From NCBI RefSeq assembly GCF_965641715.1, contig NZ_OZ282453.1: DNA of 64,000 nucleotides. One strand, given 5' to 3'. Origin of the DNA: Escherichia coli. GTDB lineage: Bacteria; Pseudomonadota; Gammaproteobacteria; Enterobacterales; Enterobacteriaceae. The notes under the pieces were generated by a model. That model worked only from the letters and a program-made list of their open reading frames with translations. It was not told the DNA's origin and did no database searches. The translations under genes were made by a program, and so were the position numbers. Of the stretch, positions 7,249-51,724 are shown piece after piece (the first letter of the stretch is position 1; every line of letters starts with the position of its first letter).

Positions 7249-8283
7249 ATGGCTTACTCTGTTCAAAAGTCGCGCCTGGCAAAGGTTGCGGGTGTTTCGC
7301 TTGTTTTATTACTCGCTGCCTGTAGTTCTGACTCACGCTATAAGCGTCAGGTCAGTGGTGATGAAGCCTACCTGGAAGCGGCACCGCTTGCGGAGCTTCA
7401 TGCCCCGGCTGGAATGATTTTGCCGGTGACCTCCGGTGATTATGCAATCCCGGTGACCAACGGTAGTGGTGCTGTCGGTAAGGCGCTGGACATTCGTCCA
7501 CCAGCCCAGCCGCTGGCACTGGTTTCTGGCGCGCGTACCCAGTTCACGGGCGATACCGCTTCATTGCTGGTGGAAAATGGTCGTGGCAATACTCTGTGGC
7601 CGCAGGTGGTTAGCGTGCTGCAGGCGAAAAACTACACCATCACCCAACGTGATGATGCTGGTCAGACACTGACCACCGATTGGGTACAATGGAACCGTCT
7701 GGACGAAGACGAGCAGTATCGTGGTCGTTATCAAATCTCTGTTAAGCCGCAGGGTTATCAGCAGGCGGTTACGGTTAAACTGCTGAACCTGGAACAGGCG
7801 GGCAAACCGGTTGCAGACGCGGCTTCCATGCAGCGTTACAGCACGGAGATGATGAACGTTATTTCCGCCGGTCTGGATAAATCTGCCACTGACGCCGCGA
7901 ACGCTGCGCAAAATCGTGCCTCCACCACTATGGACGTACAAAGTGCAGCTGATGACACCGGTTTACCAATGCTGGTCGTACGCGGGCCGTTCAATGTGGT
8001 TTGGCAACGTCTGCCAGCGGCGCTGGAAAAAGTGGGCATGAAAGTGACCGACAGCACCCGTTCGCAGGGCAACATGGCCGTAACTTATAAGCCGCTGTCT
8101 GACAGCGACTGGCAGGAACTGGGCGCGAGCGATCCAGGCCTGGCATCCGGTGACTATAAACTGCAGGTTGGCGATTTAGATAACCGCAGCAGCCTACAGT
8201 TCATCGATCCGAAAGGTCATACTCTGACTCAGAGTCAGAACGACGCGCTGGTAGCTGTCTTCCAGGCTGCGTTTAGCAAGTAA
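7249..8283 (+). CDS. bamC: outer membrane protein assembly factor BamC (NlpB lipoprotein)
   Basis: 344 aa with lipoprotein signal ...LLAACSS; immediately downstream of dapA. Confidence 0.9.
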
Positions 8284-37905: not shown

Positions 37906-39132
37906 ATGGGAATTAACGAAATCATCATGTACATCATGATGTTCTTTATGCTGATAGCTGCCGTAGACAGGATCCTGTCGCAGTTCGGCGGTTCTGCTCG
38001 TTTCCTCGGTAAGTTCGGTAAAAGTATCGAAGGATCAGGCGGTCAGTTCGAAGAAGGCTTTATGGCAATGGGCGCACTGGGCCTGGCGATGGTCGGTATG
38101 ACCGCGCTGGCACCGGTACTGGCTCACGTTCTCGGGCCGGTAATTATTCCGGTTTACGAAATGCTCGGCGCTAACCCATCGATGTTCGCCGGAACACTGC
38201 TGGCGTGCGATATGGGCGGCTTCTTCCTCGCCAAAGAGCTGGCGGGCGGCGACGTAGCCGCGTGGCTATACTCTGGGTTAATTCTCGGGTCGATGATGGG
38301 GCCAACGATTGTGTTTTCCATTCCGGTGGCGCTCGGCATTATCGAACCTTCTGACCGTCGTTATCTGGCGCTCGGCGTGCTGGCGGGCATTGTGACCATT
38401 CCGATTGGTTGTATCGCTGGTGGTCTGGTTGCTATGTACTCCGGTGTTCAGATCAACGGCCAGCCGGTGGAATTCACTTTCGCCCTGATCCTGATGAACA
38501 TGATCCCGGTGATCATTGTTGCGATTCTGGTGGCGCTGGGGCTGAAATTCATCCCAGAAAAAATGATCAACGGCTTCCAGATCTTCGCCAAATTCCTCGT
38601 TGCATTGATCACCCTCGGTCTTGCCGCTGCGGTAGTGAAATTCCTGCTTGGCTGGGAACTGATCCCCGGTCTGGATCCTATCTTTATGGCCCCTGGCGAT
38701 AAACCCGGTGAGGTGATGCGCGCCATTGAAGTTATCGGTTCTATCTCCTGCGTTCTGTTAGGGGCGTATCCGATGGTGCTGCTGCTGACCCGCTGGTTTG
38801 AAAAACCGCTGATGAGCGTCGGTAAAGTGCTGAATATGAACAACATCGCGGCAGCCGGCATGGTGGCAACGCTTGCCAACAACATCCCGATGTTCGGCAT
38901 GATGAAGCAGATGGATACCCGCGGCAAAGTCATCAACTGCGCCTTCGCCGTTTCCGCTGCTTTCGCCCTGGGCGACCACTTAGGCTTCGCCGCTGCCAAC
39001 ATGAATGCCATGATCTTCCCGATGATTGTCGGCAAGTTGATCGGCGGCGTAACGGCGATTGGCGTGGCGATGATGCTGGTGCCAAAAGACGACGCGACCG
39101 CGGCTAAAACCGAAGCGGAGGCACAATCGTGA
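37906..39132 (+). CDS. eutH: ethanolamine permease EutH
   Basis: 408-aa polytopic membrane protein. Confidence 0.85.
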   Translation: MGINEIIMYIMMFFMLIAAVDRILSQFGGSARFLGKFGKSIEGSGGQFEEGFMAMGALGLAMVGMTALAPVLAHVLGPVIIPVYEMLGANPSMFAGTLLACDMGGFFLAKELAGGDVAAWLYSGLILGSMMGPTIVFSIPVALGIIEPSDRRYLALGVLAGIVTIPIGCIAGGLVAMYSGVQINGQPVEFTFALILMNMIPVIIVAILVALGLKFIPEKMINGFQIFAKFLVALITLGLAAAVVKFLLGWELIPGLDPIFMAPGDKPGEVMRAIEVIGSISCVLLGAYPMVLLLTRWFEKPLMSVGKVLNMNNIAAAGMVATLANNIPMFGMMKQMDTRGKVINCAFAVSAAFALGDHLGFAAANMNAMIFPMIVGKLIGGVTAIGVAMMLVPKDDATAAKTEAEAQS

Positions 39133-40532
39133 ACACTCGCCAGCTACTGAGCGTCGGTATCGATATCGGCACCACCACCACCCAGGTGATTTTCTCCCAC
39201 CTGGAACTGGTTAACCGTGCGGCGGTGTCGCAGGTGCCGCGCTACGAATTCATCAAACGCGAAATTAGCTGGCAAAGCCCGGTGTTCTTTACCCCTGTCG
39301 ATAAACAGGGTGGTTTAAAAGAAGCGGAACTGAAATCGCTGATTTTAGAGCAATATCAGGCTGCGGGCATTGCGCCGGAAAGCGTTGATTCTGGTGCCAT
39401 CATCATCACCGGTGAAAGCGCGAAAACCCGCAATGCTCGCCCGGCGGTGATGGCGCTCTCTCAGTCGCTGGGCGATTTTGTCGTCGCCAGCGCCGGGCCG
39501 CACCTCGAATCCGTGATCGCCGGTCACGGTGCCGGGGCGCAAACCCTTTCTGAACAACGGCTGTGTCGGGTACTGAATATCGACATCGGCGGTGGCACCG
39601 CGAACTACGCCCTGTTCGATGCCGGAAAAATCAGCGGCACTGCCTGCCTCAACGTCGGTGGTCGCCTGCTGGAAACCGACAGCCAGGGGCGCGTGGTTTA
39701 CGCTCATAAACCGGGGCAGATGATTGTGGATGAGTGCTTCGGCGCAGGCACCGATGCCCGTTCGCTGACCGGCGCGCAGCTGGTGCAGGTTACCCGGCGG
39801 ATGGCAGAGCTGATTGTCGAAGTGATTGACGGAACGCTTTCGCCGCTCGCGCAGGCATTAATGCAAACCGGTTTGCTGCCCGCAGGTGTTACGCCCGAAA
39901 TCATTACGCTTTCTGGCGGCGTGGGCGAATGTTATCGCCACCAGCCCGCCGACCCGTTCTGTTTTGCCGATATTGGCCCGCTTCTGGCAACGGCGCTGCA
40001 TGACCATCCGCGCCTGCGTGAGATGAACGTGCAGTTTCCGGCGCAAACCGTGCGCGCCACGGTGATTGGTGCGGGTGCACATACCCTTTCGCTCTCTGGC
40101 AGCACAATCTGGCTGGAGGGCGTACAACTGCCGCTGCGCAATTTGCCGGTGGCGATCCCAATTGATGAAACGGATCTGGTGGGTGCCTGGCAACAGGCGC
40201 TGATTCAGCTGGATCTTGATCCCAAAACTGACGCGTACGTGCTGGCGCTTCCCGCCTCGCTGCCTGTGCGTTACGCCGCGGTACTGACGGTCATCAACGC
40301 GTTGGTCGATTTCGTCGCGCGTTTTCCGAATCCGAATCCCCTGCTGGTGGTGGCCGGGCAGGACTTTGGTAAAGCTCTGGGCATGTTGTTGCGCCCACAG
40401 CTACAACAACTCCCGTTGGCAGTCATTGACGAAGTGATTGTCCGCGCGGGGGACTATATCGACATTGGTACGCCTCTTTTTGGCGGATCGGTTGTGCCGG
40501 TGACGGTGAAATCACTCGCATTTCCTTCCTGA
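39129..40532 (+). CDS. eutA: ethanolamine ammonia-lyase reactivase EutA
   Basis: 467 aa MNTRQLLSVGIDIGTTTTQVIF...; stop TGA at 40530-40532 abuts the island. Confidence 0.85.
   Translation: MNTRQLLSVGIDIGTTTTQVIFSHLELVNRAAVSQVPRYEFIKREISWQSPVFFTPVDKQGGLKEAELKSLILEQYQAAGIAPESVDSGAIIITGESAKTRNARPAVMALSQSLGDFVVASAGPHLESVIAGHGAGAQTLSEQRLCRVLNIDIGGGTANYALFDAGKISGTACLNVGGRLLETDSQGRVVYAHKPGQMIVDECFGAGTDARSLTGAQLVQVTRRMAELIVEVIDGTLSPLAQALMQTGLLPAGVTPEIITLSGGVGECYRHQPADPFCFADIGPLLATALHDHPRLREMNVQFPAQTVRATVIGAGAHTLSLSGSTIWLEGVQLPLRNLPVAIPIDETDLVGAWQQALIQLDLDPKTDAYVLALPASLPVRYAAVLTVINALVDFVARFPNPNPLLVVAGQDFGKALGMLLRPQLQQLPLAVIDEVIVRAGDYIDIGTPLFGGSVVPVTVKSLAFPS
40525..40532. repeat. left junction direct repeat (att core candidate), overlaps the eutA stop codon
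   Basis: cttcctga, identical to 51725-51732; surrounding 20 bp are imperfectly similar. Confidence 0.5.
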
Positions 40533-40626
40533 ATACTGTAGTTATCAGGCGTGGCGCTGGGTGGCTGGGTGTTAGTGGGATTATATCCGGCTGTGTATCC
40601 GGTCGGGGTGATTGGTCTGTATAGCA

Positions 40627-40647
40627 GAAAACCCGGCGCGGGGCCGG
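40627..40647 (-). terminator. rho-independent terminator of the eutA-proximal cargo gene
   Basis: cccggc gcgg gccggg hairpin with a U tract on the minus-strand transcript; a near-identical copy is at 42316-42337. Confidence 0.6.
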
Positions 40648-40655
40648 GTGAACTA

Positions 40656-41216
40656 TCACTCAGGGAACAAGTTGATTTGAAGCAAACTGCCAATGTATTT
40701 ACCAGTGCTTTTAATTTTTCGCTTTGATGGCTTACACGAATTCAGGTTGACACCAGCCTGGCTAGATATTGGCTTGTATTGCCGCTCCGCCAGTACGATC
40801 AGGTCTGCCGCGTCTTTTAGCTTTCCATCGTTAGCCAGTTCCAATGCTCGATCCGCCATTTGCCCGCATTGTTGAATCAGCTTAAGTTGCGATACCTCCA
40901 GTCGCAATTGCTGGATTCGTTCTACCACTTTCGCCCTAATGCGCTTAGTTTCACGCATTCCCATTCTTAATGCCTGGTTGCCAGTAAGTGAGTAAACCTC
41001 TTTTTCTTTCCTGAAGTTTGCGGCTTTACCGTCAGCTTGGACGCGCATTTTATGCGCTTCCAAGAATTCGCCCTCCAATTCATCCCTGATCTTCGCGTTG
41101 AATCTGTCGTTCTTGAGTTCATTTAACCCTTCCGCCTTGCGGATCTGGTTGATTAACTCCAACAATTCATCACTGCGGATACGCCACTCGCTATCAACCT
41201 GTACCAAGTCAAACAT
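40656..41216 (-). CDS. hypothetical protein (island cargo); function unknown
   Basis: ORF track 40656..41309 begins at a TTG; the internal ATG at 41216 (MFDLVQVDSEWRIR...) has a GGGAG Shine-Dalgarno 6 nt upstream, giving 186 aa; basic C-terminus; own terminator. Confidence 0.55.
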   Translation of the reverse strand: MFDLVQVDSEWRIRSDELLELINQIRKAEGLNELKNDRFNAKIRDELEGEFLEAHKMRVQADGKAANFRKEKEVYSLTGNQALRMGMRETKRIRAKVVERIQQLRLEVSQLKLIQQCGQMADRALELANDGKLKDAADLIVLAERQYKPISSQAGVNLNSCKPSKRKIKSTGKYIGSLLQINLFPE

Positions 41217-41380
41217 GTTGTTGCTCCCGTTTTGCTGCCATAGGGCAACGGCTCGCCAGCCTTTATCACCTCCTTTAGTTGTTGCGATTCTTAACTGAAT
41301 GGTTATCAAAACGCTGCGTTAATATCATTGATATGTATCAAATTTGTTTTGTGACGCGACAATGCCTTGTGAATATCAAT

Positions 41381-41404
41381 AAAAAACCCAGCGCTATGGC
41401 TGGG
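41381..41404 (-). terminator. rho-independent terminator of the HTH cargo gene
   Basis: cccagc gctatg gctggg hairpin with a U tract on the minus-strand transcript. Confidence 0.55.
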
Positions 41405-41437
41405 CTTCGTTTAATGAGATGGGATTGAAAGCGGGTT

Positions 41438-42220
41438 TTATTTATCTCCCAGATTGTATTCCCAGTTGGGAAGTAAAGTTATCAGCTTGTCACCTTTCTT
41501 GCCTTTGCCGATCTGGTTGCCGTTCTCGTCTTTCTTGTGTGTGATTTCCTGGTCAACCTTAATCAATCCTCTCTCTTTGGCTTGCTCAATCAGTCGGTAG
41601 AATGCGCCGTTACTAATCGGCTTCCGGTTACCGTCGTTATCCATCGCAGTGATTTTCTGTTGCAGTCCGGCGTTATTGCCCAGGTATTCGCCACCTAACG
41701 CCGCCAGTACCTGACACAACATGCCGACACTGTATTTTTTCGGATTTGGGTTAATCCATTCTTTAGCTCCCATCTCTTTTTTGTCGTTGGGCGCTTGTTC
41801 TGCTGCTACTGCGTTCACCTTTTCATCTCCCATCTTGTTACCGCTTGCTGTGCGCTTAATTTCTTCCAGTTCTCTCTCAAGCTCACCTATACGTAATTCA
41901 CGCTCGATAATTACCCCGCGCAGCACATCATCATCACCGTGAGGGCTTGCCTGAATCCAGTTACCATTGGCGAGCGGTAGGAGGGCATAAATTCCGAACA
42001 GGTCACAAAGCGCGGCAAGTGTATTAAAATCAGGTTCCCGGCGTCCCTCCATCCAGTGGCTAACAGCGCCTTTTGTGACTGGTTCGCCTTTCTTGCTTTT
42101 AACACCCATGCGATCCAGTGCGGCGGCTATCTCTTCGCATTTAATGCCACGACCGCCAGCATAGCCCGCCGCTTTCGCGGCCCCTTTGAGGATGTCGTGA
42201 ATTTTCATTTCGTAACTCAT
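41438..42220 (-). CDS. XRE/Cro-C1-type helix-turn-helix domain protein (island cargo)
   Basis: ORF track 41438..42235; preferred start is the second ATG (MSYEMKIHD...) with a GGGAGA Shine-Dalgarno; HTH-like segment IKCEEIAAALDRMGVKSKKGEPVTKGAVSHWMEG; coiled-coil middle; Lys/Gly-rich C-terminus. Confidence 0.6.
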   Translation of the reverse strand: MSYEMKIHDILKGAAKAAGYAGGRGIKCEEIAAALDRMGVKSKKGEPVTKGAVSHWMEGRREPDFNTLAALCDLFGIYALLPLANGNWIQASPHGDDDVLRGVIIERELRIGELERELEEIKRTASGNKMGDEKVNAVAAEQAPNDKKEMGAKEWINPNPKKYSVGMLCQVLAALGGEYLGNNAGLQQKITAMDNDGNRKPISNGAFYRLIEQAKERGLIKVDQEITHKKDENGNQIGKGKKGDKLITLLPNWEYNLGDK

Positions 42221-42226
42221 AATTTT

Positions 42227-42257
42227 ATCTCCCATCTCATGAACTATGGTGGGAGAT
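42227..42257. promoter_or_regulatory. perfect 8-bp inverted repeat (atctccca N15 tgggagat) over the start region of the HTH gene
   Basis: Arms at 42227-42234 and 42250-42257; one arm contains the Shine-Dalgarno and first ATG of the minus-strand gene; tgggagat recurs at 42958-42965. Confidence 0.45.
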
Positions 42258-42315
42258 TAACACGGCGGGCCTGTGGCGGGTAAGTGTAACGGGAGAGAAT
42301 GTTGATTCAGGTCAC

Positions 42316-42337
42316 AAAAACCCGGCGCGGGGCCGGG
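42316..42337 (-). terminator. rho-independent terminator of the 158-aa cargo gene
   Basis: cccggc gcgg(g) gccggg hairpin with a U tract on the minus-strand transcript. Confidence 0.6.
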
Positions 42338-42359
42338 CTGTGTTAGTACGTCGTTGCTC

Positions 42360-42836
42360 TTAGTTCATGAGGAGATCTTTAAATTCGACGCCGTATTCAT
42401 GGGCAATGTCGCCTCTATAGTAGATGTTATCTTTCAGGATATATCCGACGTTTCTCAGGACGTGAGAACACTCTCTTACTGCTGCCTCTTTACCCCTTAA
42501 AACATCCTCCCCGCTAACTTCTTCGCCGCTGTACTTCACTGCGATGTTGTCTGCTGCACGCTCTGCTGCTTCCAGGCAATTAATCTTCACTTTTCCCCGA
42601 TTCTCCCAGGCAAAATCGCGGCCATAAATCCCCATTGCATCAACCATCTTTTGCGCAGTAGTGCGCTCATCCACCCATTCAGTGCGTTCGAACTTCTCGC
42701 CAGCAGCTACCCTTGCCGCCAGTTGTTCGTGTTGAGTCTGTACGGCCGCAGCCTCTTCTTCCCATTTGCCTTGCTCGTTGTATACGATGAAGCCAGTGAT
42801 GACTGCAGCGATTAGTAACTTGTCCAGAAAATTCAT
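42360..42836 (-). CDS. membrane-anchored hypothetical protein (island cargo)
   Basis: 158 aa; AGGAGG Shine-Dalgarno 5 nt upstream of the ATG; single N-terminal hydrophobic helix LLIAAVITGFIVY followed by a charged soluble domain. Confidence 0.6.
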   Translation of the reverse strand: MNFLDKLLIAAVITGFIVYNEQGKWEEEAAAVQTQHEQLAARVAAGEKFERTEWVDERTTAQKMVDAMGIYGRDFAWENRGKVKINCLEAAERAADNIAVKYSGEEVSGEDVLRGKEAAVRECSHVLRNVGYILKDNIYYRGDIAHEYGVEFKDLLMN

Positions 42837-43120
42837 AGCTTCCTCCTATCTGTTCAATTACCCGGCATCTCTTGCCGTTGAACGTATTAAACAAAATGCC
42901 AGTCAGGGATAAAGCGATCTGCGTCATAAAGTCCATCCCCCATCTCATTGATATTGATGGGAGATTGTTTAATTGGTCAGAAATTAAGCGTTTATGTGCG
43001 CTGCCGGGTATCCACCTCCTATCTGAAGATGGAAAGATGGGTGATATAATGTGATGGCAATTGGTGGATTGCGTGGTTTTTACAATGATAAGGGGCTGGC
43101 GTAATGCTGGCCCCTTTGTT

Positions 43121-43162
43121 TATCCGGTATCCGGTATCCGGTATAAGCGGGCGTGTATCCGG
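43121..43162. repeat. cluster of four tatccgg motifs (three tandem 7-mers plus one)
   Basis: tatccggtatccggtatccggtataagcgggcgtgtatccgg; related copies at 40584-40602 and, inverted, at 51558-51565. Confidence 0.5.
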
Positions 43163-43356
43163 TAGCGGGGATATGGGCGCGTGTACGTGAAATCTGGCAA
43201 ATTAGCAGGGTAATTGTGAGGGAATTTTTGCGTAGGAGCGTTTGTGGCTGGTAGCTCAAAATTGAGCTTTGCTTTTCATTCAATGACTTAGGTTAATTCT
43301 AGCAAAACGCTAGGATTGAATGTCCGCCAGTCTGCTTCCCCTAGCGTGGGATTTGG

Positions 43357-45723
43357 TCAACGTCTGCGCGGCTGCAAAATTCCTCCGGGTCGTTGTGATT
43401 CACGCTGCATCAGTCGCATCGCTGTGTTTTCTATGGTCTGCTGCAGCGCTTTTGAGTCTTCCTCTGTCCAGCCGTTGTTAGCCTGGATGTTGAACGTATT
43501 GTTCATCGTGATTCCGCCACCGCCTACCAGATCGCGGCCCGGTGTAACTCGTCCACCTTCACCCGGGATCATGTACTGTTTCCCGCCAGTGGATGTAAAT
43601 AGCTCCGGTACTCCGTGCTCCCCGACCCTATAAAGATTGCCACCGTTAACAGCCCCGCCGTTGTAACGAGCGCCAGCCAGTCCAAGCGTTTTGGCGGCAG
43701 CTACGCCAGTAGTAAGCCCGGTAAGTCCAGTGGCCCCAGCGCCGCCCATCGTGGCTACGTTAGCCAGGTATGCAGGAGTGGCCCACGCCGATCCTAATGC
43801 TGTAGCCTCTGCTAGTGCTTTAGCTGTTGCGGCTGCGTTTGCGGCTTCACCAATTAGCTGCTGTTTAACCCACTCAGCACCCATCTGGACAATGCCACCG
43901 ACCACAGAAGACAGGATCGTACTGCCAACGTTGGCAAGTGACTCTTGCAGCGATTGAGTACCGTTTATCAGTCCGGTAAATGCGCTGCCAGCGCCAGACG
44001 ATAACCCATCGACCATATTCCCGATGAGGCCATTTATATCGCTTTGTTTCTTCCACTGCTGCCACTGGAGATCCAGAACCCTTTGTTCATGTGCGATCTC
44101 TTCCTGGCGCAACTGCTCTTCGGTAGCCCCAAGATCTAGAAGCATTTGCTTGCGAACAGCCCATTCATTTTGGATCTTCTGTATTGGGTCAATCTGAGCT
44201 TTCTGCTTATCCTGCTCACTGACAAGACTGTCCCATTTCGCTTTCTGCTTGCGGATGGCTTCAGCTTCATCAATTGCTGCGAGTGTACTTGCTCGCTGTT
44301 TCGCGCTGATCAACCGTTTCTGCTCAGCCGCTTCCAGGTCTTCTACTGCTTTTTTCCGTTTATTGAGCGCCGCTAGTTCGGGATCGTATTTTTCCACCAA
44401 TGAAAGGCCGCTTGCTTCCTTACGTTCGCGTTCTCTTTGTGCCTGTTTGGCTGCCTGCTTAGCGGCGTTTTCTGCTTGTTTGGCTGCTCTTTCTTTCGCC
44501 CTGGTGTTCTCTTCTTCCTTGCGCTTATTCTCTTCTAACTCCTTGTTTTGTTCGCGTAATTTAACGATTTCCTCATGATGCGCCTTTGTCAGCTGGCCTT
44601 CTTTCAGTGCCCGATCTATATCAGCGTTTGCGTTGCCTTTTAGCTGTTCCTGTTTAACTTGCAGATGTTTAATCATCATTTCGCCAGTGGCAATCGCTGC
44701 CGCAGACGCTCCAGCATTCAGAGCTTCATTTAACGCTCTCTGACGTTCTTCTGCTGTTAATGCCTCGTTGCTGTATCGAAGTAGCGCATCAACGTATTTC
44801 TCCAGTTCTGCGCGGCCTGCCGCAGTTGCTGGTTCCATTGCTTTTAGGATGCTCAGAAGGCTTTGCGCTTCATAGGAAGACGGGTTTTTGCGGAACTGCG
44901 CCATAGCGTTATAAAGCGCCATAGCTTCACCCTCTGTGATTCTGTACTTAGCTCCCAGCCCTTCAATGACCGCTGATAACTGTTTGCCAAGCGCTGCACC
45001 GAATGCGCCTTCCTTGCTTAATTTGTTGAGCACTTCACTCAGTGAATTTCCTGACACGCCCAGCGCGTCGAGTTCTCTTGCTACCGTTCCCAGGTCGCCG
45101 CCTTTCATCCATCCTGCATTAGAAAATTCAGTGATAGCCCGGCCCGCTTCCCGCGTTTCTTCCTGGAGTGTTTTTAGCGCCCGCACGGCCTGCTCTTTCA
45201 TTACGGCGGCGGCAATGGCGTTGTTCTGTGTGGCTTCGTAATATGAATCACTGAAAGCGTTAACGCCCTGGGTGGATTTGCCGATCACGGCGTCGATTGA
45301 TGCTAATGCCTCCTTCATCCTTTCAGCGCTATCCGTTGCGTCGTCCATGCTGTCCGTTAGGCTGTTGGCAATCGCCCCGCCAATAGCCATCACCGCCCCC
45401 ATGACCGCACCGCCAGTACCGAAGGCAGCGGCAAGTTGTGCACCCTGCACAGCGAACGCCTGGAGCGCATTACCGCCCATCTGCAATTGAGTGGCAAGGT
45501 CTGCGATCTGGTATGATGCGTTACGGATTGCCGGGGAAAGGTTGGTTTTGACTGCGGCAGACGTTTTGGTCATCTGCGTGTTCAGTTTTTTGACGCCACT
45601 GTCAGCGCGTTTTGCGCCGCGTTCTATACTGTCAAAAGCCTGGTCCGCTTCTTGTTGTGCTGCCAGGAGTTTACCAGTACGGGCGTCGACCTCATAGTAT
45701 ATGGTCCCAAGATTCCCACTCAT
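43357..45723 (-). CDS. phage tail tape-measure protein, lambda gpH-like
   Basis: 788 aa; N-terminal Gly/Ala-rich hydrophobic segment (GGAVMGAVMAIGGAI); long Ala/Lys/Glu/Gln-rich coiled-coil centre; C-terminal Gly-rich region with NLYR and NNTFNIQ motifs resembling the lambda H C-terminus as recalled; no Walker A motif. Confidence 0.7.
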   Translation of the reverse strand: MSGNLGTIYYEVDARTGKLLAAQQEADQAFDSIERGAKRADSGVKKLNTQMTKTSAAVKTNLSPAIRNASYQIADLATQLQMGGNALQAFAVQGAQLAAAFGTGGAVMGAVMAIGGAIANSLTDSMDDATDSAERMKEALASIDAVIGKSTQGVNAFSDSYYEATQNNAIAAAVMKEQAVRALKTLQEETREAGRAITEFSNAGWMKGGDLGTVARELDALGVSGNSLSEVLNKLSKEGAFGAALGKQLSAVIEGLGAKYRITEGEAMALYNAMAQFRKNPSSYEAQSLLSILKAMEPATAAGRAELEKYVDALLRYSNEALTAEERQRALNEALNAGASAAAIATGEMMIKHLQVKQEQLKGNANADIDRALKEGQLTKAHHEEIVKLREQNKELEENKRKEEENTRAKERAAKQAENAAKQAAKQAQRERERKEASGLSLVEKYDPELAALNKRKKAVEDLEAAEQKRLISAKQRASTLAAIDEAEAIRKQKAKWDSLVSEQDKQKAQIDPIQKIQNEWAVRKQMLLDLGATEEQLRQEEIAHEQRVLDLQWQQWKKQSDINGLIGNMVDGLSSGAGSAFTGLINGTQSLQESLANVGSTILSSVVGGIVQMGAEWVKQQLIGEAANAAATAKALAEATALGSAWATPAYLANVATMGGAGATGLTGLTTGVAAAKTLGLAGARYNGGAVNGGNLYRVGEHGVPELFTSTGGKQYMIPGEGGRVTPGRDLVGGGGITMNNTFNIQANNGWTEEDSKALQQTIENTAMRLMQRESQRPGGILQPRRR

Positions 45724-46012
45724 AATATCTTTATCCGCGTTGTGCGGACACCTCCGATTATTCTTTACTCTAATAATTTCACAATGAAACAGTTTATTGC
45801 CGCTTCAGTGGCTTCGTGTTCCGGTTTGCTTCGATCAATCACAAAAAATACAGCTTAATAGAATCAATGGCTTATAAAGTTGTATTAGCTATGTTTCTTC
45901 GTCCGTGCCACTGAAAACCCAGTTTTTCCAATGGAATCAATACTGATATGTATCCATACTGTTTTTCACATAATGTACGTTATGCGCACTACGGGAAACG
46001 TACTGAATTTAT

Positions 46013-46243
46013 TTACTGGTCGCCGTTCAGTTCATGCAGAGTCTGTTCTGGCAATGAATCCAGCCAGTTTTCTGCATCCTCCCTGTAACACTCCAGGATG
46101 CAACGGTTTGTGAAGTTGATGAAAGCGGTCAGTGATTCTGCTTCGTCGTTCCTGTGCGTTCTCCTGGCGTGCTTGCGTAGTCGTTTCGCGTCTGCCAGTT
46201 GGTCATTGAGTATCTTCAGTCTGTCGGCAATATCATCGTTCAT
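46013..46243 (-). CDS. hypothetical small protein
   Basis: 76 aa; GGGAGA Shine-Dalgarno 6 nt upstream of the ATG. Confidence 0.45.
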   Translation of the reverse strand: MNDDIADRLKILNDQLADAKRLRKHARRTHRNDEAESLTAFINFTNRCILECYREDAENWLDSLPEQTLHELNGDQ

Positions 46244-46430
46244 GTCGTCTCTCCCTCGCGCGCGCGTCGTACTTGTCCGAAAATTACCCCCATAAAAGCG
46301 CCCCTCATATAGTGCAAAATCCCGGCTGACGCGGATCTCAGTGGGTTTTAGCAGTGAAAACTGACATCAAAAACGGCTCGCTAAGGTCCGCTAAGTATCC
46401 GCTATCGTTCGCTAACCCCCCGCTAACCTA

Positions 46431-46796
46431 TTAGATATCGCATCCAACGCTATTGAGCTGGCTATGTATATCGGCGCGAATTAACTTCAGGCGTTTACAA
46501 AATTCGCGTTCTTCCGAATTAAGCTCGCGGCCACCTTGTTTCGAGGCAATGAGCTTGTTGATGGTGGAAAGCGAATATTCACTCCATATACGAAGCATTT
46601 GTCGCTTCATTGGTTGCTCGCTCAATGGTGAGTTTTTCAGGTCTGACACGCGCTCTGCGACGGTTCTTGCGATGCCTTGTACCACTCGTAGTGCCAACAT
46701 GATGATTTTCTCCGGACTTGTGCTAATATAGTTCCCGAACATTGTTTCGAGACTGCTTATCCTGTTTGTCTTGTCCGATTTGTTCATTGGTCGCAT
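46431..46796 (-). CDS. hypothetical protein
   Basis: 121-aa ORF in the same orientation as, and closely spaced with, the upstream 180-aa ORF. Confidence 0.45.
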   Translation of the reverse strand: MRPMNKSDKTNRISSLETMFGNYISTSPEKIIMLALRVVQGIARTVAERVSDLKNSPLSEQPMKRQMLRIWSEYSLSTINKLIASKQGGRELNSEEREFCKRLKLIRADIHSQLNSVGCDI

Positions 46797-46838
46797 TGTT
46801 AAGTCAGCCGGGGTAATTCCCGGCTTTCTTTTATCCGA

Positions 46839-47381
46839 TCAGTACCGAATCCCTATCGCATTGAATACGCGTTTCCGTTGCTCAGCTTCAGGATCGGCGG
46901 CCATTTCTGGTTCTGGCTCCGGCATAGACGGGGCGGCATCAAAATGCTCAATTTCACGACCGAAATACGAGTTCAGGTCAATACCTGCCGAACTATCCAC
47001 TCCATCAAAATAGCGACGCTGTTCCTCGGTGAGACAGCTACCCAGACGTTCCTCAACCTGCGCCATAAACTCAGCATCCGGTGAGAAGTACTCATCCGGA
47101 GTCGGAGCACCGCTCTGTTTGTGCATCTCCATTTTCTCTGCGTTCGTTTTCAGCCCGGCAATGCGTTTCTCCAGTCCGGCGGCTTTAATAGCGTCAGCAA
47201 CGATTTGTGGGATCTGCGGTTTAATTATTTCGATAACTTCATTGCTGATTAATTTAAACTGGGCCATACGGATCGCTTTAATCTGCTTATTTAACAGTGC
47301 GCGTTCCCCTTCGTTGGCGGTTTTATCACGCTGTGCTACCAGTTCATCGCCTTTGTTTGTCAGTACATCAAATGCGTCCAT
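46839..47381 (-). CDS. hypothetical protein
   Basis: 180 aa; strong GGAGGAGG Shine-Dalgarno 7 nt upstream; acidic Pro/Glu-rich C-terminal tail; 17 nt downstream of the 108-aa ORF. Confidence 0.55.
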   Translation of the reverse strand: MDAFDVLTNKGDELVAQRDKTANEGERALLNKQIKAIRMAQFKLISNEVIEIIKPQIPQIVADAIKAAGLEKRIAGLKTNAEKMEMHKQSGAPTPDEYFSPDAEFMAQVEERLGSCLTEEQRRYFDGVDSSAGIDLNSYFGREIEHFDAAPSMPEPEPEMAADPEAEQRKRVFNAIGIRY

Positions 47382-47398
47382 TGTCTTTCCTCCTCCGA

Positions 47399-47725
47399 TT
47401 ATTTAAAAGTGCTTATTGACACGCCGAAACGACGACTTAATTCAAAAAGGAGTCGCGCCTTTGCAGTGCCTTCCATGTCTTCCGGCATTTCAGACTGAAG
47501 TTTATCAGCTACTTCATCAACAAGTGGCCGAACCGTTTCCACGAACTTGTCCGCAATATAATCAGCAGAACGCATCACTTTTTCCTGGAATTCCTCACGG
47601 CGTACCTGGGCGGCTGATTTAGGGGCTGTCGTGCGCTGAAAATAACTGTCTAATGAATGCATGGCATCTGCTCCTTTTACTTTGATTGCTGTTATTTCTT
47701 TAATTGTGTTTGCTTTGATTTTCAT
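47399..47725 (-). CDS. hypothetical protein
   Basis: 108-aa ORF starting 76 nt downstream of the AlpA-like gene. Confidence 0.5.
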   Translation of the reverse strand: MKIKANTIKEITAIKVKGADAMHSLDSYFQRTTAPKSAAQVRREEFQEKVMRSADYIADKFVETVRPLVDEVADKLQSEMPEDMEGTAKARLLFELSRRFGVSISTFK

Positions 47726-47801
47726 GCTGCCTATTCCTTCAGAAATTGCGGTAGTTTGCTTTTTAAATCAATAAGTTATTTGATAATCTCAGTAGCTGTT
47801 T

Positions 47802-47993
47802 TCATTGGTGGCGAGCGCCTTTGTTTTTATAGAATTCCAAAATCTCAGATCGGATAAACTTAATTCTTGAGCCAATCGGACTGACCGGGACGGGCCAGCC
47901 TTTAATCTTGTTCATCCACCGGAATATTGTCCGACGGGTAACGCCGAATAAAGCTGCTACCTCGTTAACCGTCATTAATTCGCTATCATTCAT
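47802..47993 (-). CDS. excisionase / AlpA-family DNA-binding protein
   Basis: 63 aa; HTH MTVNEVAALFGVTRRTIFRWM typical of excisionase-family domains; GAGGTGA Shine-Dalgarno. Confidence 0.7.
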   Translation of the reverse strand: MNDSELMTVNEVAALFGVTRRTIFRWMNKIKGWPVPVSPIGSRIKFIRSEILEFYKNKGARHQ

Positions 47994-48003
47994 GTTCTCA
48001 CCT

Positions 48004-48046
48004 CAAAAAGTAGCGGTGAGGAAAATATGGAGAAAACCCTCACCGC
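48004..48046 (-). promoter_or_regulatory. terminator-like hairpin in the leader of the AlpA-like gene (candidate attenuator)
   Basis: Minus-strand RNA reads GCGGUGAGG, 16-nt loop, CCUCACCGC, UACUUUUU, then GAGGUGAGAAC AUG; the 3' arm could alternatively pair with the Shine-Dalgarno. Confidence 0.45.
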
Positions 48047-48220
48047 GCCCTGAATGAAATTAAAGACCAACATTACTGTTGATACTTATTATTATATTCC
48101 TCCTGTCCCTGTTTCACATCTTTTACCATATAGTGAAAGGGGATATTCTGTAATGTTTACAAAACTTTTAATTAGCAAAAAATAATTGCGCATCTCACGT
48201 AATGCAGGGATAATATTACT

Positions 48221-48306
48221 CAAGGGCTGGTTGCCCTTACTCAAAATGTGATCTATAACTACAACGATCTATTTCACTTCCCCGCTTTCTCCGGCGGGAT
48301 TTTTTT
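48221..48306 (+). ncRNA. candidate small RNA (~86 nt), divergent from the AlpA-like operon
   Basis: Promoter-like TTGCGC (48186-48191), 17-bp spacer, GATAAT (48209-48214); internal hairpin agggctggttgccct; terminator cccgc tttctccg gcggg plus T7 at 48281-48306; no ORF. Confidence 0.4.
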
Positions 48307-49115
48307 GCCTGCAATCTGGCACCATTGCGCACATTAAAATTAGATGCCATTTAAAAGCGATATAACGCGTTCTGCCGGGCTTAATTTTGGCTATCCACTT
48401 GGAAGGGTAAGCCTGTTTTGATTCGTCTGGCGTGGAATGGTGCGGCGGTAATATCAGATCTCAGCGTTCTGCGTGGTGGGATGAAATAGCCTGGCAGGAT
48501 TTGCGTGTGGTTTGCTCTCCCAAAAAATGGGGTAATGGCGCTGGCTGGATGGCAGGACTCCGCGCTGATTACTGGATGGCTGAAAATTTAATGAAATCGC
48601 ATCAATTTTAATGCGTCTAAATCGCTCTGTGGCGACGTGAAGTTTTCAGGTAAGCAAGTGTAGCTGTGTGGTGTGTTCATCGCGTTACTGGCACCATTCC
48701 GTTCGAATTTGGCGCTATCAGGATGGTTTGCGGTGGTCGGCGGCGGGGATAAACTTGCTTGAGTGGTCACCTCAGCCTGCTGTGCGTCGTGTGATGGTAC
48801 TGTCTGCACCTGGCTATACGCTGCTTTGCTGCTGTTTCCTGTCTGGTCTGTATACGCGATAAAACCCATCGGCTTTACAGTGAGTGAGTTTTTTGCGCTT
48901 TGCTTTCCATTCGGTTTGCTTACTGCTGCTGTGTGTCTGTGCGGTAGCTCAGAAAGCTGTCGATGATAACCATCACTGCCAGACCGTCTTTTGAGCTGGC
49001 GATTGCTCGAAGTCTTCCGAAGGTCCGCTGGGCTTGTTGCTTGTTTGTGTTCTTTTAAAATGCGCGCCTCTTACTTTCTCTTAAAAAGAAAAAAGGAATA
49101 TACAGATCTCATACT

Positions 49116-49275
49116 ATGTGTGTCCCAAATGTCACACGTCATGGCCTGACCTGTATCCCAAATGTCACACGTCACCCTCTGACCTGTATCCCAAATGTCA
49201 CACGTACCTGTGTCCCAAATGTCACACGTCTATTGTTAATTAATTGTTGACCTGTGTCTCAAATGTCACACGTCT
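49116..49275. repeat. iteron array: five direct repeats of about 22 bp
   Basis: Copies start at 49116, 49149, 49182, 49206, 49250 (spacings 33, 33, 24, 44 bp); core cccaaatgtcacacgt; AT-rich ttgttaattaattgttga between copies 4 and 5. Confidence 0.7.
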
Positions 49276-49292
49276 GTTGATGGTTTAAGTAA

Positions 49293-49319
49293 TAAAAAGG
49301 GCCACCATTTTAGGTGACC
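49293..49319 (-). terminator. rho-independent terminator of the wHTH gene
   Basis: gggccacc atttta ggtgaccc hairpin (one G-U pair) with a U tract on the minus-strand transcript. Confidence 0.5.
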
Positions 49320-49338
49320 CATTGATGCGTTTTAGTCG

Positions 49339-50103
49339 TTATCTTGCGTTCTCGACCTGAAAAAGCATTCTGTATTTTCTTGCGTGCTGACCAATAACAT
49401 ATTCCCCGTATGGCTCAATGAGTCCTAACTCAACCAGGATTTTCATCTGGCGAATTACGGTGCGGCGATTCATGCCCCATTCATCAGCTATTTTTGCCTG
49501 GCAAACTTCAGATACATAAGATCCATCATTCTGCTTTCTTGCTGCTGATGCAATGCTGGATAATACGCTCCAGGCTGTAGCTTTAGCTTTATTCTCGCAA
49601 CCACTTCTGACAAATGCCTTACGTGCCGCACCCAAACAGACATAACTGCAATAAATTCCTTTTTCTTCCGTTTGGTATTGTGTCTCTTTATCCTGCATGG
49701 CTTCCGGTTCTTCCGGCGCTTCCTGCTGTGGTGCTGTCTGCGAAGTTTTAGCGGCCATACTGCGTAGCTCGTTCACGATATCAGTAGCTGATTTCTTCTC
49801 GCTTTTAGTTTCCTGCGTGACTGATAAATACTCACCTTGTAACGCCAGGAAGTCAGCGCGGGCGTTTGCCTGGCTTTGTTCTGGTGATTCAGGTTCTGCA
49901 TCGGCAGGTGATGAAATCGGTGATACACGCGCCCAGCCTGTTTTGGCGTTGCATTCCCAGCGATAACCATTAAAGCGGATATCATTCAGGCCATCATCAA
50001 TGGCGCTCCGTACTTCTTCCGGGATCGCGTCGATTTTCTGAAGGCTGTGTTTACCGAGTGATTCGCCTTGCCGTGGGGCGTAGGCGGTTGGTAAAATATT
50101 CAT
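49339..50103 (-). CDS. winged-helix DNA-binding protein, putative replication initiator or repressor
   Basis: 254 aa; AAGGAGA Shine-Dalgarno; acidic low-complexity middle; C-terminal HTH-like EVCQAKIADEWGMNRRTVIRQMKILVELGLIE; iteron array immediately downstream. Confidence 0.5.
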   Translation of the reverse strand: MNILPTAYAPRQGESLGKHSLQKIDAIPEEVRSAIDDGLNDIRFNGYRWECNAKTGWARVSPISSPADAEPESPEQSQANARADFLALQGEYLSVTQETKSEKKSATDIVNELRSMAAKTSQTAPQQEAPEEPEAMQDKETQYQTEEKGIYCSYVCLGAARKAFVRSGCENKAKATAWSVLSSIASAARKQNDGSYVSEVCQAKIADEWGMNRRTVIRQMKILVELGLIEPYGEYVIGQHARKYRMLFQVENAR

Positions 50104-50315
50104 GTGGGATTTCTCCTTTTTACTTGTTTCCCATATCGCCCGGATTGGTTAGCGGCCTTCCGGGCTTTTTGTTGCGTTGATCCTATTTTCGATCCCCGGA
50201 TTTTTTATTACAAACTTGGCTTAATCATTGATTTTATTGGTATAGCTGTATAAAAGGATAACAGGATAAAAGGGTGATAGATTGTGTAACCTGTTAACCT
50301 TTTATACCAGTAAGG

Positions 50316-50342
50316 CGAAAGAAAAGCCGGACGAATCCGGCC
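50316..50342 (-). terminator. rho-independent terminator after the integrase gene
   Basis: gccgga cgaa tccggc hairpin with a U-rich tract, 8 nt past the integrase stop. Confidence 0.5.
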
Positions 50343-50349
50343 TTATAGT

Positions 50350-51555: not shown

Positions 51556-51724
51556 AACCGGATACCTCGATCTAACGACTCGATAACCCCGCTCATGTAT
51601 CCGTCGCGTTCGGTTGCGTTCGGCAGGATAAGTAACGGGCGTATTAAGTGGAACACCTTACAGGACAAGGGATAACGATGAAATAGAATTGTTCGAATGC
51701 TGTGAAAAATGTTACTCATCACTT

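What the first reader, a model, noticed from the sequence alone, without database searches (positions are those of the whole stretch)
42227..42257. Perfect inverted repeat covering the ribosome-binding site and start of the HTH cargo gene, with the same motif upstream of the neighbouring membrane-protein gene
Seen in sequence: atctccca (42227-42234) and tgggagat (42250-42257) form an 8-bp perfect inverted repeat with a 15-bp spacer. On the minus-strand mRNA one arm is the GGGAGA Shine-Dalgarno and first codons of the HTH gene. The tgggagat half-site recurs at 42958-42965, about 120 bp upstream of the 158-aa gene, with a partner atctc at 42942-42946. Inference: either an operator for the HTH protein (autoregulation plus control of the membrane-protein gene) or an mRNA hairpin that sequesters the Shine-Dalgarno.
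Basis: seen in the sequence. Interest (0 to 1): 0.45.

Follow-up and report, generated by a model that had tools for sequence, protein, structure and literature searches.

The report
Operator-like dyads around a yffS homolog
The inverted repeat is real and is one of four to seven copies of a type-specific dyad (CCCA-N15-TGGGAG) that most likely lets the YffS-like prophage regulator control its own gene and the neighbouring cargo promoter. This is an ordinary repressor-operator layout, but it gives a testable function to an uncharacterised E. coli K-12 gene family.

Summary
In detail: atctccca (42227-42234) and tgggagat (42250-42257) form a perfect 8-bp inverted repeat with a 15-bp spacer. An 8-bp repeat alone is not remarkable: 52 occur in the window against about 21 expected. 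Its recurrence is remarkable. CCCA-N15-TGGG occurs four times in 1.5 kb and nowhere else in the 64 kb.

The window is an E. coli ATCC 8739-type remnant of the CPZ-55 prophage, and the "HTH gene" is a yffS homolog. In 10 further related YffS-type loci the dyad sits at conserved places:
- the regulator's start;
- the cargo-operon control region;
- an antisense promoter;
- inside the regulator's coding sequence, where it fixes rare CCC and GGA codons;
- across its stop codon.

Two other regulator types at the same locus carry different dyads at the same places. The dyad type follows the C-terminal winged-helix domain, even where the cargo genes are 97% identical.

A conserved TGnTAATCT element overlaps the 5' arm. 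It lies 61.5 bp from a site shown experimentally in K-12 to bind CRP and FNR. This places the transcription start inside the spacer.

Best reading: operators for autoregulation and cargo control (confidence 0.6). A hairpin that masks the Shine-Dalgarno is less likely (0.15). No binding or start-site data exist.

The parts
42227..42257 (-). Dyad S1 (the finding). On the sense (minus) strand it reads ATCTCCCA-N15-TGGGAGAT. The 3' arm contains the Shine-Dalgarno of the yffS-like gene.
   Evidence: It is conserved as xxxTCCCA-N15-TGGGAGRT in 6 of 10 YffS-type variants and weakened to ATCTCACA-N16-TGGGAGAT in 4.
41438..42220 (-). yffS-like regulator gene, 260 aa. It has an N-terminal XRE/ImmR-like HTH, a long helix, a disordered linker and a C-terminal winged helix.
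42254..42262 (-). Candidate extended -10 element TGtTAATCT. The hexamer TAATCT is at 42254-42259 and overlaps the 5' arm of S1.
   Evidence: This is the conserved block in the upstream alignment. It is the top sigma-70-like candidate in 9 of 10 YffS-type loci and second in the window. It is a prediction only.
42301..42316 (-). CRP/FNR-type site TGTGAcctgaaTCAAC. Its centre lies 61.5 bp upstream of the start predicted from the extended -10.
   Evidence: It is the ortholog of the K-12 site ttTGTGAtctgcgTCAATatt. That site bound CRP in vitro (PMC12871828; PMC3105977) and FNR in vivo (PMC1802558).
42316..42337 (-). Intrinsic-terminator-like hairpin cccggc-cccgc-gccggg followed by TTTTTGTG, after the 158-aa gene.
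   Evidence: Read directly and conserved in relatives. The scan did not list it, although it listed the same hairpin at 40649-40631.
42360..42836 (-). 158-aa cargo gene with an N-terminal hydrophobic helix.
   Evidence: No family match.
42886..42891 (-). Candidate -10 element TTTAAT of the cargo promoter.
   Evidence: Conserved in K-12 and L006. The CRP-like site lies at -41.5 by my own counting. It is a prediction only.
42913..42928 (-). CRP-like site tATGAcgcagaTCGCT, a weakened ortholog of the K-12 yffQ CRP site.
   Evidence: K-12 site ttTGTGAtgcagaTCGCTttt, Kd 2.3 nM (PMC12871828).
42935..42965 (-). Dyad S2. On the sense strand it reads ATCTCCCA-N15-TGGGGGAT. It lies just upstream of the cargo-promoter CRP-like site.
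   Evidence: Orthologous dyads are present in all 10 other YffS-type loci.
43014..43045 (-). Dyad S3, degenerate in this window. On the sense strand it reads ATCACCCA-N16-TAGGAGGT. The 98.8% identical relative L001 has TGGGAGGT. It overlaps the plus-strand promoter TGaTATAAT.
41765..41795 (-). Intragenic dyad Int-2. On the sense strand it reads AGCGCCCA-N15-TGGGAGCT. It lies in the linker-coding region just before the C-terminal domain.
   Evidence: Its Pro codon is CCC in 10/10 variants and its Gly codon is GGA in 10/10.
41444..41474 (-). Dyad 'End'. On the sense strand it reads ACTTCCCA-N15-TGGGAGAT. It spans the last codons of the regulator gene up to the stop codon.
   Evidence: Its Pro codon is CCC in 10/10 variants and its Gly codon is GGA in 9/10.
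41825..41832 (-). Orphan half-site TGGGAGAT inside the gene. It is a remnant of dyad Int-1, which is complete in K-12 and other variants.
41413..41424 (+). Extra half-site AATGAGATGGGA in the opposite orientation, between the regulator's stop codon and its terminator.

Best explanation
The inverted repeat is one operator of a small set of dyad sites with the consensus A-N2-TCCCA-N15-TGGGAG-N-T. These sites are probably bound by the YffS-like regulator encoded next to them, most likely through its conserved C-terminal winged-helix domain acting as a dimer.

At S1 the 5' arm overlaps a weak extended -10 promoter (TGtTAATCT). That promoter depends on a CRP/FNR-type activator site centred at about -61.5. 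Bound regulator would cover roughly -10 to +22 and shut off its own gene, which is negative autoregulation.

S2, and S3 in relatives, flank the CRP-dependent cargo promoter and overlap a divergent antisense promoter. The same protein would therefore also set expression of the 158-aa membrane-protein gene.

Shown here:
- the dyads, their positions and their conservation;
- their switch in sequence with regulator type;
- nucleotide-level constraint on the copies inside the gene;
- activator binding at the orthologous K-12 sites, taken from the literature.

Inferred:
- the promoter and transcription start positions;
- that YffS is the binding protein, and through which domain;
- that the effect is repression.
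For: (1) Clustering. CCCA-N15-TGGG occurs 4 times in 41448-42970 and nowhere else in 64 kb. The 28-nt gapped motif is shared exactly by S1 and S2, with 0 expected.

(2) Conserved positions. The other 10 YffS-type loci carry 5-7 dyads each at the same places: S3, S2, the peptide-gene start, S1, Int-1, Int-2 and End. All lie within the yffQRS-type module. None lies near int or the other genes of K-12 CPZ-55 (L004).

(3) Specificity switch.
- The L002-type regulator is 29% identical and NCBI names it 'XRE family transcriptional regulator'. It has TTTGTTGATAAA-N15-TTTAGCAACAAA at S1, at the peptide-gene start and at End, plus 4 half-sites inside the gene.
- A third type (L024/L025) has xxYCCA-N23-TGGAYTGA at the same distance from both ATGs, plus a copy inside the gene.
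- L002 and L006 share cargo genes at 97% identity. They differ in the roughly 170-200 bp control region and in the regulator gene.
- L006 has an unrelated N-terminal module but the YffS C-terminal domain, and it keeps the TGGGAG dyads. L024 has an N-terminus 39% identical to that of L006 but a different C-terminal domain, and its dyad is different.

(4) The protein looks like a DNA binder. The AlphaFold2 model has an N-terminal domain resembling the ImmR DNA-binding domain (7t8i, TM-score 0.81). Its C-terminal domain resembles PadR/Pex/F93 winged helices.

(5) Promoter context.
- TGnTAA(T/C)CT overlapping the 5' arm is the best sigma-70-like candidate in 9 of 10 YffS-type loci. The analogous TGaTAAATT is the best candidate in L002.
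- K-12 data place CRP, FNR and RpoD holoenzyme in these spacers.

(6) Nucleotide-level selection inside the gene. The arm codons are fixed on the rare codons CCC and GGA in 9-10 of 10 variants. Most other conserved Pro and Gly columns vary among synonymous codons, and the two that do not use the common codons CCG and GGC.

(7) Symmetry without a helix. The outer pair 1 is kept or co-varies (AU 26, GC 4), while pair 2 is unpaired in 19 of 39 sites.
Against: - There is no binding, ChIP or transcription-start data for YffS anywhere I could search.
- The promoter assignment is a crude weight-matrix prediction. In this window a second candidate, TACACT at -68, scores slightly higher. That promoter would transcribe both arms.
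- The 3' arm is also a Shine-Dalgarno. AGATGGGAGAT-N5-ATG recurs before cargo genes that have no 5' partner (L008 genes at 1570 and 1813). Part of the repetition therefore reflects translation signals.
- At pair 3 the mismatches are almost all U.G on the sense strand: 16-19 cases against 1 on the antisense strand. A sense-strand RNA helix would produce the same pattern.
- S1 is weakened in four variants (CACA, N16). S3 carries a core mutation in this window.
- The arm spacing differs between regulator types (15 against 23 bp). This is awkward if the dimers have the same geometry.
- The sites inside the gene and at its stop codon have no obvious regulatory logic.
Confidence: 0.6

Rival explanations
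1. The two arms are both transcribed and fold into an mRNA hairpin. The hairpin buries the GGGAGA Shine-Dalgarno and throttles translation of the regulator. In relatives it would do the same for the 20-aa hydrophobic peptide.
For: - The sense-strand hairpin is predicted at -11.9 kcal/mol for S1 and -14.0 for S2, and in S1 the Shine-Dalgarno lies in the stem.
- Mismatches at pair 3 are nearly all U.G on the sense strand.
- At the peptide gene the predicted class II CRP promoter (-10 TTTAAT) would place the whole dyad in the 5' UTR (and my own counting).
- In this window an alternative -10 (TACACT at -68) would transcribe both arms.
Against: - In the L002 type and the third type the dyad stops short of the Shine-Dalgarno. 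Masking it is therefore not the conserved feature.
- The same arm sequence is used at all sites of one element and changes with regulator type. A simple hairpin does not need that.
- S2, S3, Int-2 and End are not at real gene starts.
- Pair 2 is unpaired in 19 of 39 sites and pair 4 in 11 of 39. The total pairing of 87.8% barely exceeds the 85.0% of shuffles.
- The antisense strand folds as well or better (-14.6 kcal/mol).
- The best conserved promoter candidate puts the start inside the spacer.
- No Rfam family matches.
Confidence: 0.15
2. The dyads are DNA sites for a process other than transcription control. They could be iterons of a replication origin lying in the initiator's own gene, as in lambda O/ori. 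They could also be junction sites at which modules of the element are exchanged.
For: - Copies lie in the linker-coding part of the regulator gene in all three types.
- The L002 type has four direct half-sites in a tandem 93-bp intragenic repeat.
- Dyads sit at mosaic break-points. Identity between L002 and L006 begins right after the peptide-gene dyad.
- Protein variants lack exactly the segment between Int-1 and Int-2.
- A 254-aa protein elsewhere in the element has weak replication-initiator hits.
Against: - There is no AT-rich unwinding region and no DnaA boxes next to the sites.
- YffS has no similarity to initiators.
- Most sites are at promoters or gene starts rather than in one cluster.
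- The integrase and the invertase-type recombinases of these elements use other kinds of site (established knowledge).
- Break-points at conserved motifs can arise from ordinary homologous recombination.
Confidence: 0.08
3. There is no dedicated function. A Shine-Dalgarno-containing start cassette has been copied around the element, and the upstream complementary arms are fortuitous.
For: - The AGATGGGAGRT-N5-7-ATG cassette precedes several genes, some without a partner arm.
- Single 8-bp inverted repeats are common in the window.
Against: - CCCA sits exactly 15-16 bp upstream of TGGG at 4-7 sites per element in 11 loci, including non-start positions.
- The rare codons CCC and GGA are fixed at the intragenic arms.
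- Parallel but different dyads occur in two other regulator types.
Confidence: 0.07

Closest known systems
XRE-type immunity repressors of prophages and integrative elements with operators at their own promoter (lambda/434 CI, ICEBs1 ImmR)
   Same: The regulator has an N-terminal XRE/ImmR-like HTH. Dyad sites overlap the regulator's own predicted promoter and a second promoter. Control region and regulator are exchanged together between otherwise near-identical elements, as in heteroimmune phages.
   Different: There is no S24 peptidase or ImmA-type partner. The dyad type follows a second, C-terminal winged-helix domain rather than the XRE domain. The arms are separated by 15 bp instead of forming a compact 14-17 bp operator. 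Sites also occur inside and at the end of the coding sequence. The module lies after the tail genes next to attR, and all genes of the element point the same way.
PadR-family winged-helix regulators binding inverted repeats
   Same: The C-terminal domain gives the best fold matches to PadR, Pex and LmrR-type winged helices. The targets are palindromic.
   Different: The E-values are weak (4e-3 and above) and there is no Pfam PadR match. PadR dimers bind short palindromes with closely spaced half-sites (established knowledge). Here the domain hangs on a disordered linker after a coiled coil.
P22 immI region (mnt-arc-ant with the sar antisense RNA)
   Same: It is a secondary regulatory module in the late or tail end of a prophage. 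It has small dyad operators at overlapping divergent promoters, a short antisense RNA unit and an antirepressor-like gene. The 217-aa downstream gene here has weak Ant hits. The comparison with P22 rests on my own knowledge.
   Different: The regulators are unrelated (ribbon-helix-helix against HTH plus winged helix). The RNA candidate here is divergent, not antisense to a coding gene. Nothing here has been tested experimentally.
Lambda O protein and ori iterons within the O coding sequence
   Same: Binding-site-like repeats lie in the linker-coding region of the gene for the protein presumed to bind them. They co-vary with protein type.
   Different: There are only one or two dyads inside the gene here, no AT-rich region and no initiator homology. 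Most sites lie outside the gene, at promoters.
Shine-Dalgarno-sequestering leader hairpins (for example in type I toxin mRNAs such as tisB or zorO, or translational operators)
   Same: In the YffS type the 3' arm is the Shine-Dalgarno and a 6-8 bp stem can form. In relatives, a 20-aa hydrophobic peptide gene has the same arrangement.
   Different: The loop is 15 nt. The stem has frequent internal mismatches. The dyad does not include the Shine-Dalgarno in the other two types. Transcription of both arms has not been shown.

Membership tests
Autoregulatory repressor-operator pair (prophage immunity type) | A dyad-symmetric site at or overlapping the regulator's own promoter. | tested here: inconclusive
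   The dyad is confirmed. Its overlap with a promoter rests on a predicted extended -10 element and on K-12 data showing CRP, FNR and RNA polymerase binding in the spacer. No transcription start has been mapped.
Autoregulatory repressor-operator pair (prophage immunity type) | The same site is repeated at other promoters of the module. | tested here: met
   S2 and S3 lie in the cargo and antisense promoter region, and relatives have a site at the peptide-gene start. There are 4-7 sites per element.
Autoregulatory repressor-operator pair (prophage immunity type) | The site sequence changes together with regulator specificity type. | tested here: met
   Three regulator types carry three different dyads at equivalent positions. 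The mosaic swap is shown. The dyad follows the C-terminal domain.
Autoregulatory repressor-operator pair (prophage immunity type) | The protein binds the site and represses transcription. | not testable with these tools
   This needs EMSA, footprinting, ChIP and reporter fusions.
Shine-Dalgarno-sequestering mRNA hairpin | The stem includes the Shine-Dalgarno or the start codon. | tested here: met
   This is met for the YffS type only: the GGGAGA lies in the 3' arm. It is not met in the L002 type or the third type.
Shine-Dalgarno-sequestering mRNA hairpin | Both arms are present in the mRNA. | not testable with these tools
   The predicted start lies inside the spacer, but an alternative -10 element exists in this window. 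No public start-site data were found.
Shine-Dalgarno-sequestering mRNA hairpin | Base pairing is maintained by compensatory changes. | tested here: inconclusive
   Pairing is 87.8% against 85.0% in shuffles, and 3 of 500 shuffles reach it. Three pairs show changes on both sides. Pair 2 is unpaired in 19 of 39 sites and pair 4 in 11 of 39. DNA dyad symmetry predicts the same two-sided changes.
Known RNA families (Rfam 15) | A covariance-model match. | tested here: not met
   There are no matches with E-value up to 1 in 40400-43500.
Lambda-type origin iterons in the initiator gene | A cluster of at least 3-4 iterons with an adjacent AT-rich region, and an initiator-family protein. | tested here: not met
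   The YffS type has one or two dyads inside the gene. There is no initiator homology. No AT-rich block is visible in the coding region.
XRE family HTH (Pfam HTH_3 / HTH_31) | A Pfam match above the gathering score. | tested here: not met
   HTH_31 scores 20.8 bits against a cut-off of 27. HTH_3 scores 18.6 bits against a cut-off of 23. At fold level the domain resembles the ImmR DNA-binding domain.

The most novel reading that the evidence does not exclude
The dyads work at two levels. As DNA they are operators for the C-terminal winged-helix domain. As RNA, in the peptide-gene leader and in read-through transcripts, they mask the Shine-Dalgarno.

In addition, the regulator carries copies of its own operator inside its reading frame, at the domain junction and across its stop codon. 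These copies force rare codons and mark the break-points at which N-terminal, C-terminal and cargo modules are exchanged between elements.
Probability: 0.2. Interest if true: 0.6.

Novelty: new member of a known kind. Interest (0 to 1): 0.4.

Why it matters
- The analysis gives a concrete, testable function to yffS, an uncharacterised E. coli K-12 gene, and to the right-end module of CPZ-55-type prophages that interrupt the eut operon. The proposed function is a self-regulating two-domain DNA-binding protein with a defined operator consensus. Seven sites are predicted in K-12. They lie behind promoters that bind CRP and FNR in published experiments.
- The regulator and its control region behave as an exchangeable specificity cassette. 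At least three types occur among E. coli strains.
- Operator-like sequence embedded in a coding region can fix rare codons.
- If confirmed, it would explain how cargo membrane proteins of these prophage remnants are kept under control in lysogens.

Tried and rejected
- Peptide-pattern scans for YffS relatives gave one marginal locus in viral contigs and nothing in genome contigs. The family appears confined to E. coli.
- A DNA-pattern scan of viral contigs with GCGCGTGTACGTGAAA returned one truncated relevant locus and eight chance hits.
- tblastn of the C-terminal domain against 50,697 phage records found no match. megablast of the region against phages found nothing relevant.
- Rfam found nothing.
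- PADLOC found no defence-system match for the module proteins.
- Pfam and PHROGs gave only sub-threshold HTH hits.
- I looked for K-12 transcription-start or 3'-end data for yffS and yffQ in the supplements of PMC7815308 and PMC10301672 and found none. 'yffSp4' in PMC5961368 is only a listed promoter name.
- I considered a sigma-32 -10 element (CCCCATnT on the plus strand at S2), dnaX-like frameshift signals at Int-2 (the A-run is not conserved or in phase), integrase arm sites, invertase crossover sites and CsrA sites. I rejected all of them on inspection of the sequence and of conservation.
- The consensus promoter scan found no promoter on the minus strand in the region.

Full report
**Context**

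The window carries eutH (37906-39132) and eutA (39129-40532), followed by a roughly 11-kb prophage remnant. The remnant contains a 217-aa gene, the "HTH gene", a 158-aa gene, a tape-measure gene (43357-45723) and an integrase (50350-51555). eutB follows it.

The region around the finding is 100% identical to E. coli ATCC 8739. It is the strain-specific version of the K-12 cryptic prophage CPZ-55, and the HTH gene is a homolog of K-12 yffS. PGAP calls the gene from the ATG at 42220 (MSYEMK, 260 aa) in a 98.8% identical relative. That ATG has GGGAGA six nucleotides upstream.

**The observation**

They are 8/8 complementary and 15 bp apart. A single such repeat is not significant. The window holds 52 perfect 8-bp inverted repeats with 3-20 bp spacers, against about 21 in random sequence, and 3 of them have a 15-bp spacer.

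What is significant is the repetition:
- S1 and the upstream site S2 share CCCATCTCAT-N9-TGGGAGATT exactly, with 0 expected.
- TGGGAGAT occurs five times, all within 1.5 kb.
- CCCA-N15-TGGG occurs at 41448, 41769, 42231 and 42939 and nowhere else in the window.

At S2 the true partner arm is atccccca (42935-42942), with the same 15-bp spacer.

**A family of dyads**

I collected 11 related loci from complete E. coli genomes and assemblies. Ten of these, like the window, are of the YffS type, and I searched them in gene-sense orientation. Each of the ten has 5-7 CCCA-N15/16-TGGG dyads, and the window has 4, at conserved positions:
- S3 overlaps an antisense-strand TGaTATAAT promoter.
- S2 ends a few bp before a CRP site.
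- One dyad lies at the start of a 20-aa hydrophobic peptide gene. This gene is absent from the window.
- S1 lies at the yffS start.
- Int-1 and Int-2 lie in the part of yffS that encodes a disordered linker.
- End spans the last codons and the stop.

The window has S2, S1, Int-2 and End. It also has a point-mutated S3 and an orphan Int-1 half-site. None of the sites lies elsewhere in K-12 CPZ-55 (L004).

The intragenic arms are under nucleotide-level constraint. The Pro and Gly codons in the arms are CCC (10/10 at both Pro columns) and GGA (9/9, 10/10 and 9/10 at the three Gly columns). Most other conserved Pro and Gly columns of the same alignment vary among synonymous codons and prefer CCG and GGC.

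**Specificity switch**

A second regulator type (L002) is 29% identical with the same architecture, and NCBI names it "XRE family transcriptional regulator". It has no TGGGAG dyads. Instead it carries TTTGTTGATAAA-N15-TTTAGCAACAAA at its own start. It carries related dyads with identical geometry at the peptide-gene start and across its stop codon, and four half-sites in a tandem intragenic repeat.

A third type (L024/L025) carries xxYCCA-N23-TGGAYTGA at the same distance from both ATGs. A 17-nt inverted match links the two control regions, and a further copy lies in the linker-coding region.

L002 and L006 are 97% identical across the peptide gene and two cargo genes. The identity starts immediately after the peptide-gene dyad. 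They are 93% identical in the conserved RNA and terminator region. They are unrelated in the roughly 170-200 bp control region and in the regulator gene.

L006 has an unrelated N-terminal module joined to the YffS C-terminal domain, and it keeps the TGGGAG dyads. L024 has an N-terminus 39% identical to that of L006, a different C-terminal domain and a different dyad. The dyad type therefore follows the C-terminal domain.

The AlphaFold2 model (mean pLDDT 72.6) shows four parts:
- a confident N-terminal domain resembling the ImmR DNA-binding domain;
- a long helix;
- a disordered linker at residues 124-159;
- a C-terminal winged helix whose best matches are PadR, Pex and F93.

**Promoter context**

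Between the terminator of the upstream gene and S1 lies TGTGAcctgaaTCAAC (42301-42316). Three published K-12 studies bear on its K-12 ortholog:
- It is a 1.4 nM CRP site in Footprint-seq (PMC12871828).
- yffS and yffQ are listed as CRP genomic-SELEX targets (PMC3105977).
- It is the proposed FNR site under a ChIP-chip peak (PMC1802558).

RpoD holoenzyme SELEX peaks lie in both the yffR-yffS and yffP-yffQ spacers (PMC3946193).

The most conserved block between that site and the Shine-Dalgarno is cgTGtTAA(T/C)CT, which overlaps the 5' arm. A simple weight-matrix scan ranks it first in 9 of 10 YffS-type loci and second in the window. It ranks the analogous TGaTAAATT first in L002. The third type has TGtTATCGT at the same place.

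With this -10 element the activator site is centred at -61.5 and transcription would start inside the dyad spacer. The dyad would then span about -10 to +22. That is a classic position for promoter occlusion, and the 5' arm would be absent from the mRNA.

For the cargo promoter, TTTAAT (42886-42891) places the CRP-like site (42913-42928) at -41.5 and S2 at about -53 to -84.

All of these positions are predictions. I found no start-site data.

**The RNA alternative**

The S1 hairpin is predicted at -11.9 kcal/mol on the sense strand, with the Shine-Dalgarno in the stem. The antisense strand folds at -14.6 kcal/mol.

On 39 distinct 15-spacer sites, 87.8% of cells pair, against 85.0% after shuffling (3 of 500 shuffles reach it). 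Pair 2 is unpaired in 19 of 39 sites and pair 4 in 11 of 39. The outermost pair is nevertheless kept or co-varies. That pattern fits symmetric recognition better than a helix.

The excess of U.G over C.A at pair 3 is the one feature that favours a sense-strand helix. It is also explained by the 3' arm being held as TGGGAG.

In the other two regulator types the dyad abuts the Shine-Dalgarno but does not include it. Masking the Shine-Dalgarno therefore cannot be the conserved role. It may still operate at the peptide-gene leader and in read-through transcripts.

**Caveats**

- AGATGGGAGRT-N5-7-ATG also serves as a plain translation-start cassette before some cargo genes that have no partner arm.
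- S1 is weakened (CACA, N16) in four variants.
- The arm spacing differs among regulator types.
- The purpose of the intragenic and stop-codon sites is unexplained.

**Verdict**

The operator alternative is favoured at 0.6 and the hairpin alternative stands at 0.15. The kind of system is known: a type-specific regulator-operator cassette in a prophage. The family itself is uncharacterised.

Noticed in passing
window 43042-43124 (+ strand): A perfect extended -10 promoter (TGaTATAAT, 43042-43050) is followed about 40 nt later by a strong intrinsic terminator (43090-43116 plus a T-run). This predicts an RNA of about 65 nt, divergent from the cargo genes. The unit is conserved in K-12, L002, L003 and L006 with a variable body. 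It has no Rfam match, and dyad S3 overlaps its promoter.
   Followed up: partly
L004 (K-12 MC4100) about 7944-8006 (- strand); also L003, L002, L006, L008: A 20-aa hydrophobic peptide ORF (MKRWEVALLVMVMLVCCIEL in K-12) with a strong Shine-Dalgarno is the first gene after the cargo promoter in relatives. It is not annotated in the K-12 record I used and is deleted in this window. Together with the divergent small RNA it resembles a type I toxin-antitoxin layout.
   Followed up: no
window 41328-41341: A perfect FNR-consensus box (TTGATacatATCAA) lies between the regulator's terminator and the 217-aa gene, which has weak PHROG hits to antirepressor Ant. It is part of a longer ATTGATAT...ATATCAAT symmetry.
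   Followed up: no
window 43122-43182: Tandem CCGGTAT heptamers and a 28-nt imperfect direct repeat (GTATCCGGTATCCGGTATAAGCGGGCGT and GTATCCGGTAGCGGGGATATGGGCGCGT) lie just after the plus-strand terminator. They are followed by a block conserved in all relatives, including K-12 (gcgtgtacgtgaaatctgg...ttgtgaggga).
   Followed up: no
Alignment A2: P0011, P0017, P0020; P0142: Some YffS variants lack exactly the roughly 20 residues between the Int-1 and Int-2 motif copies. The L002-type protein exists as 242-aa and 211-aa forms that differ by one 93-bp repeat unit. This suggests recombination between the repeated motif copies inside the gene.
   Followed up: partly
L008 1540-1570 and 1790-1815: Two cargo genes are preceded by the near-identical cassette GCGCACATC-N12-AGATGGGAGATGAATTATG. 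They share the 3'-arm and Shine-Dalgarno motif but have no complementary 5' arm.
   Followed up: partly
window 42679-42948 (- strand); K-12 L004 about 8040-8120: An ORF starts 7 nt after the S2 3' arm (MTQIALSLTGILFNTF... in the window, a 25-aa MMQIAFSLQAFLFNSINERQFPTTK in K-12). It runs through the CRP site and the promoter. It is probably a by-product of conserved regulatory DNA.
   Followed up: no
window 40600-51600: The element is a roughly 11-kb remnant between eutA and eutB with all genes on one strand. Relatives show that the full element has terminase, tail and, in some, invertase-type resolvase genes upstream of the same control region. No sequenced phage in the INPHARED set carries the regulator.
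   Followed up: partly
window 40631-40649 and 42321-42337: The same GC-rich terminator hairpin (CCCGGCCCCGCGCCGGG) is used after the 158-aa gene and after the 217-aa gene. The consensus scan listed only the first of these locations.
   Followed up: no
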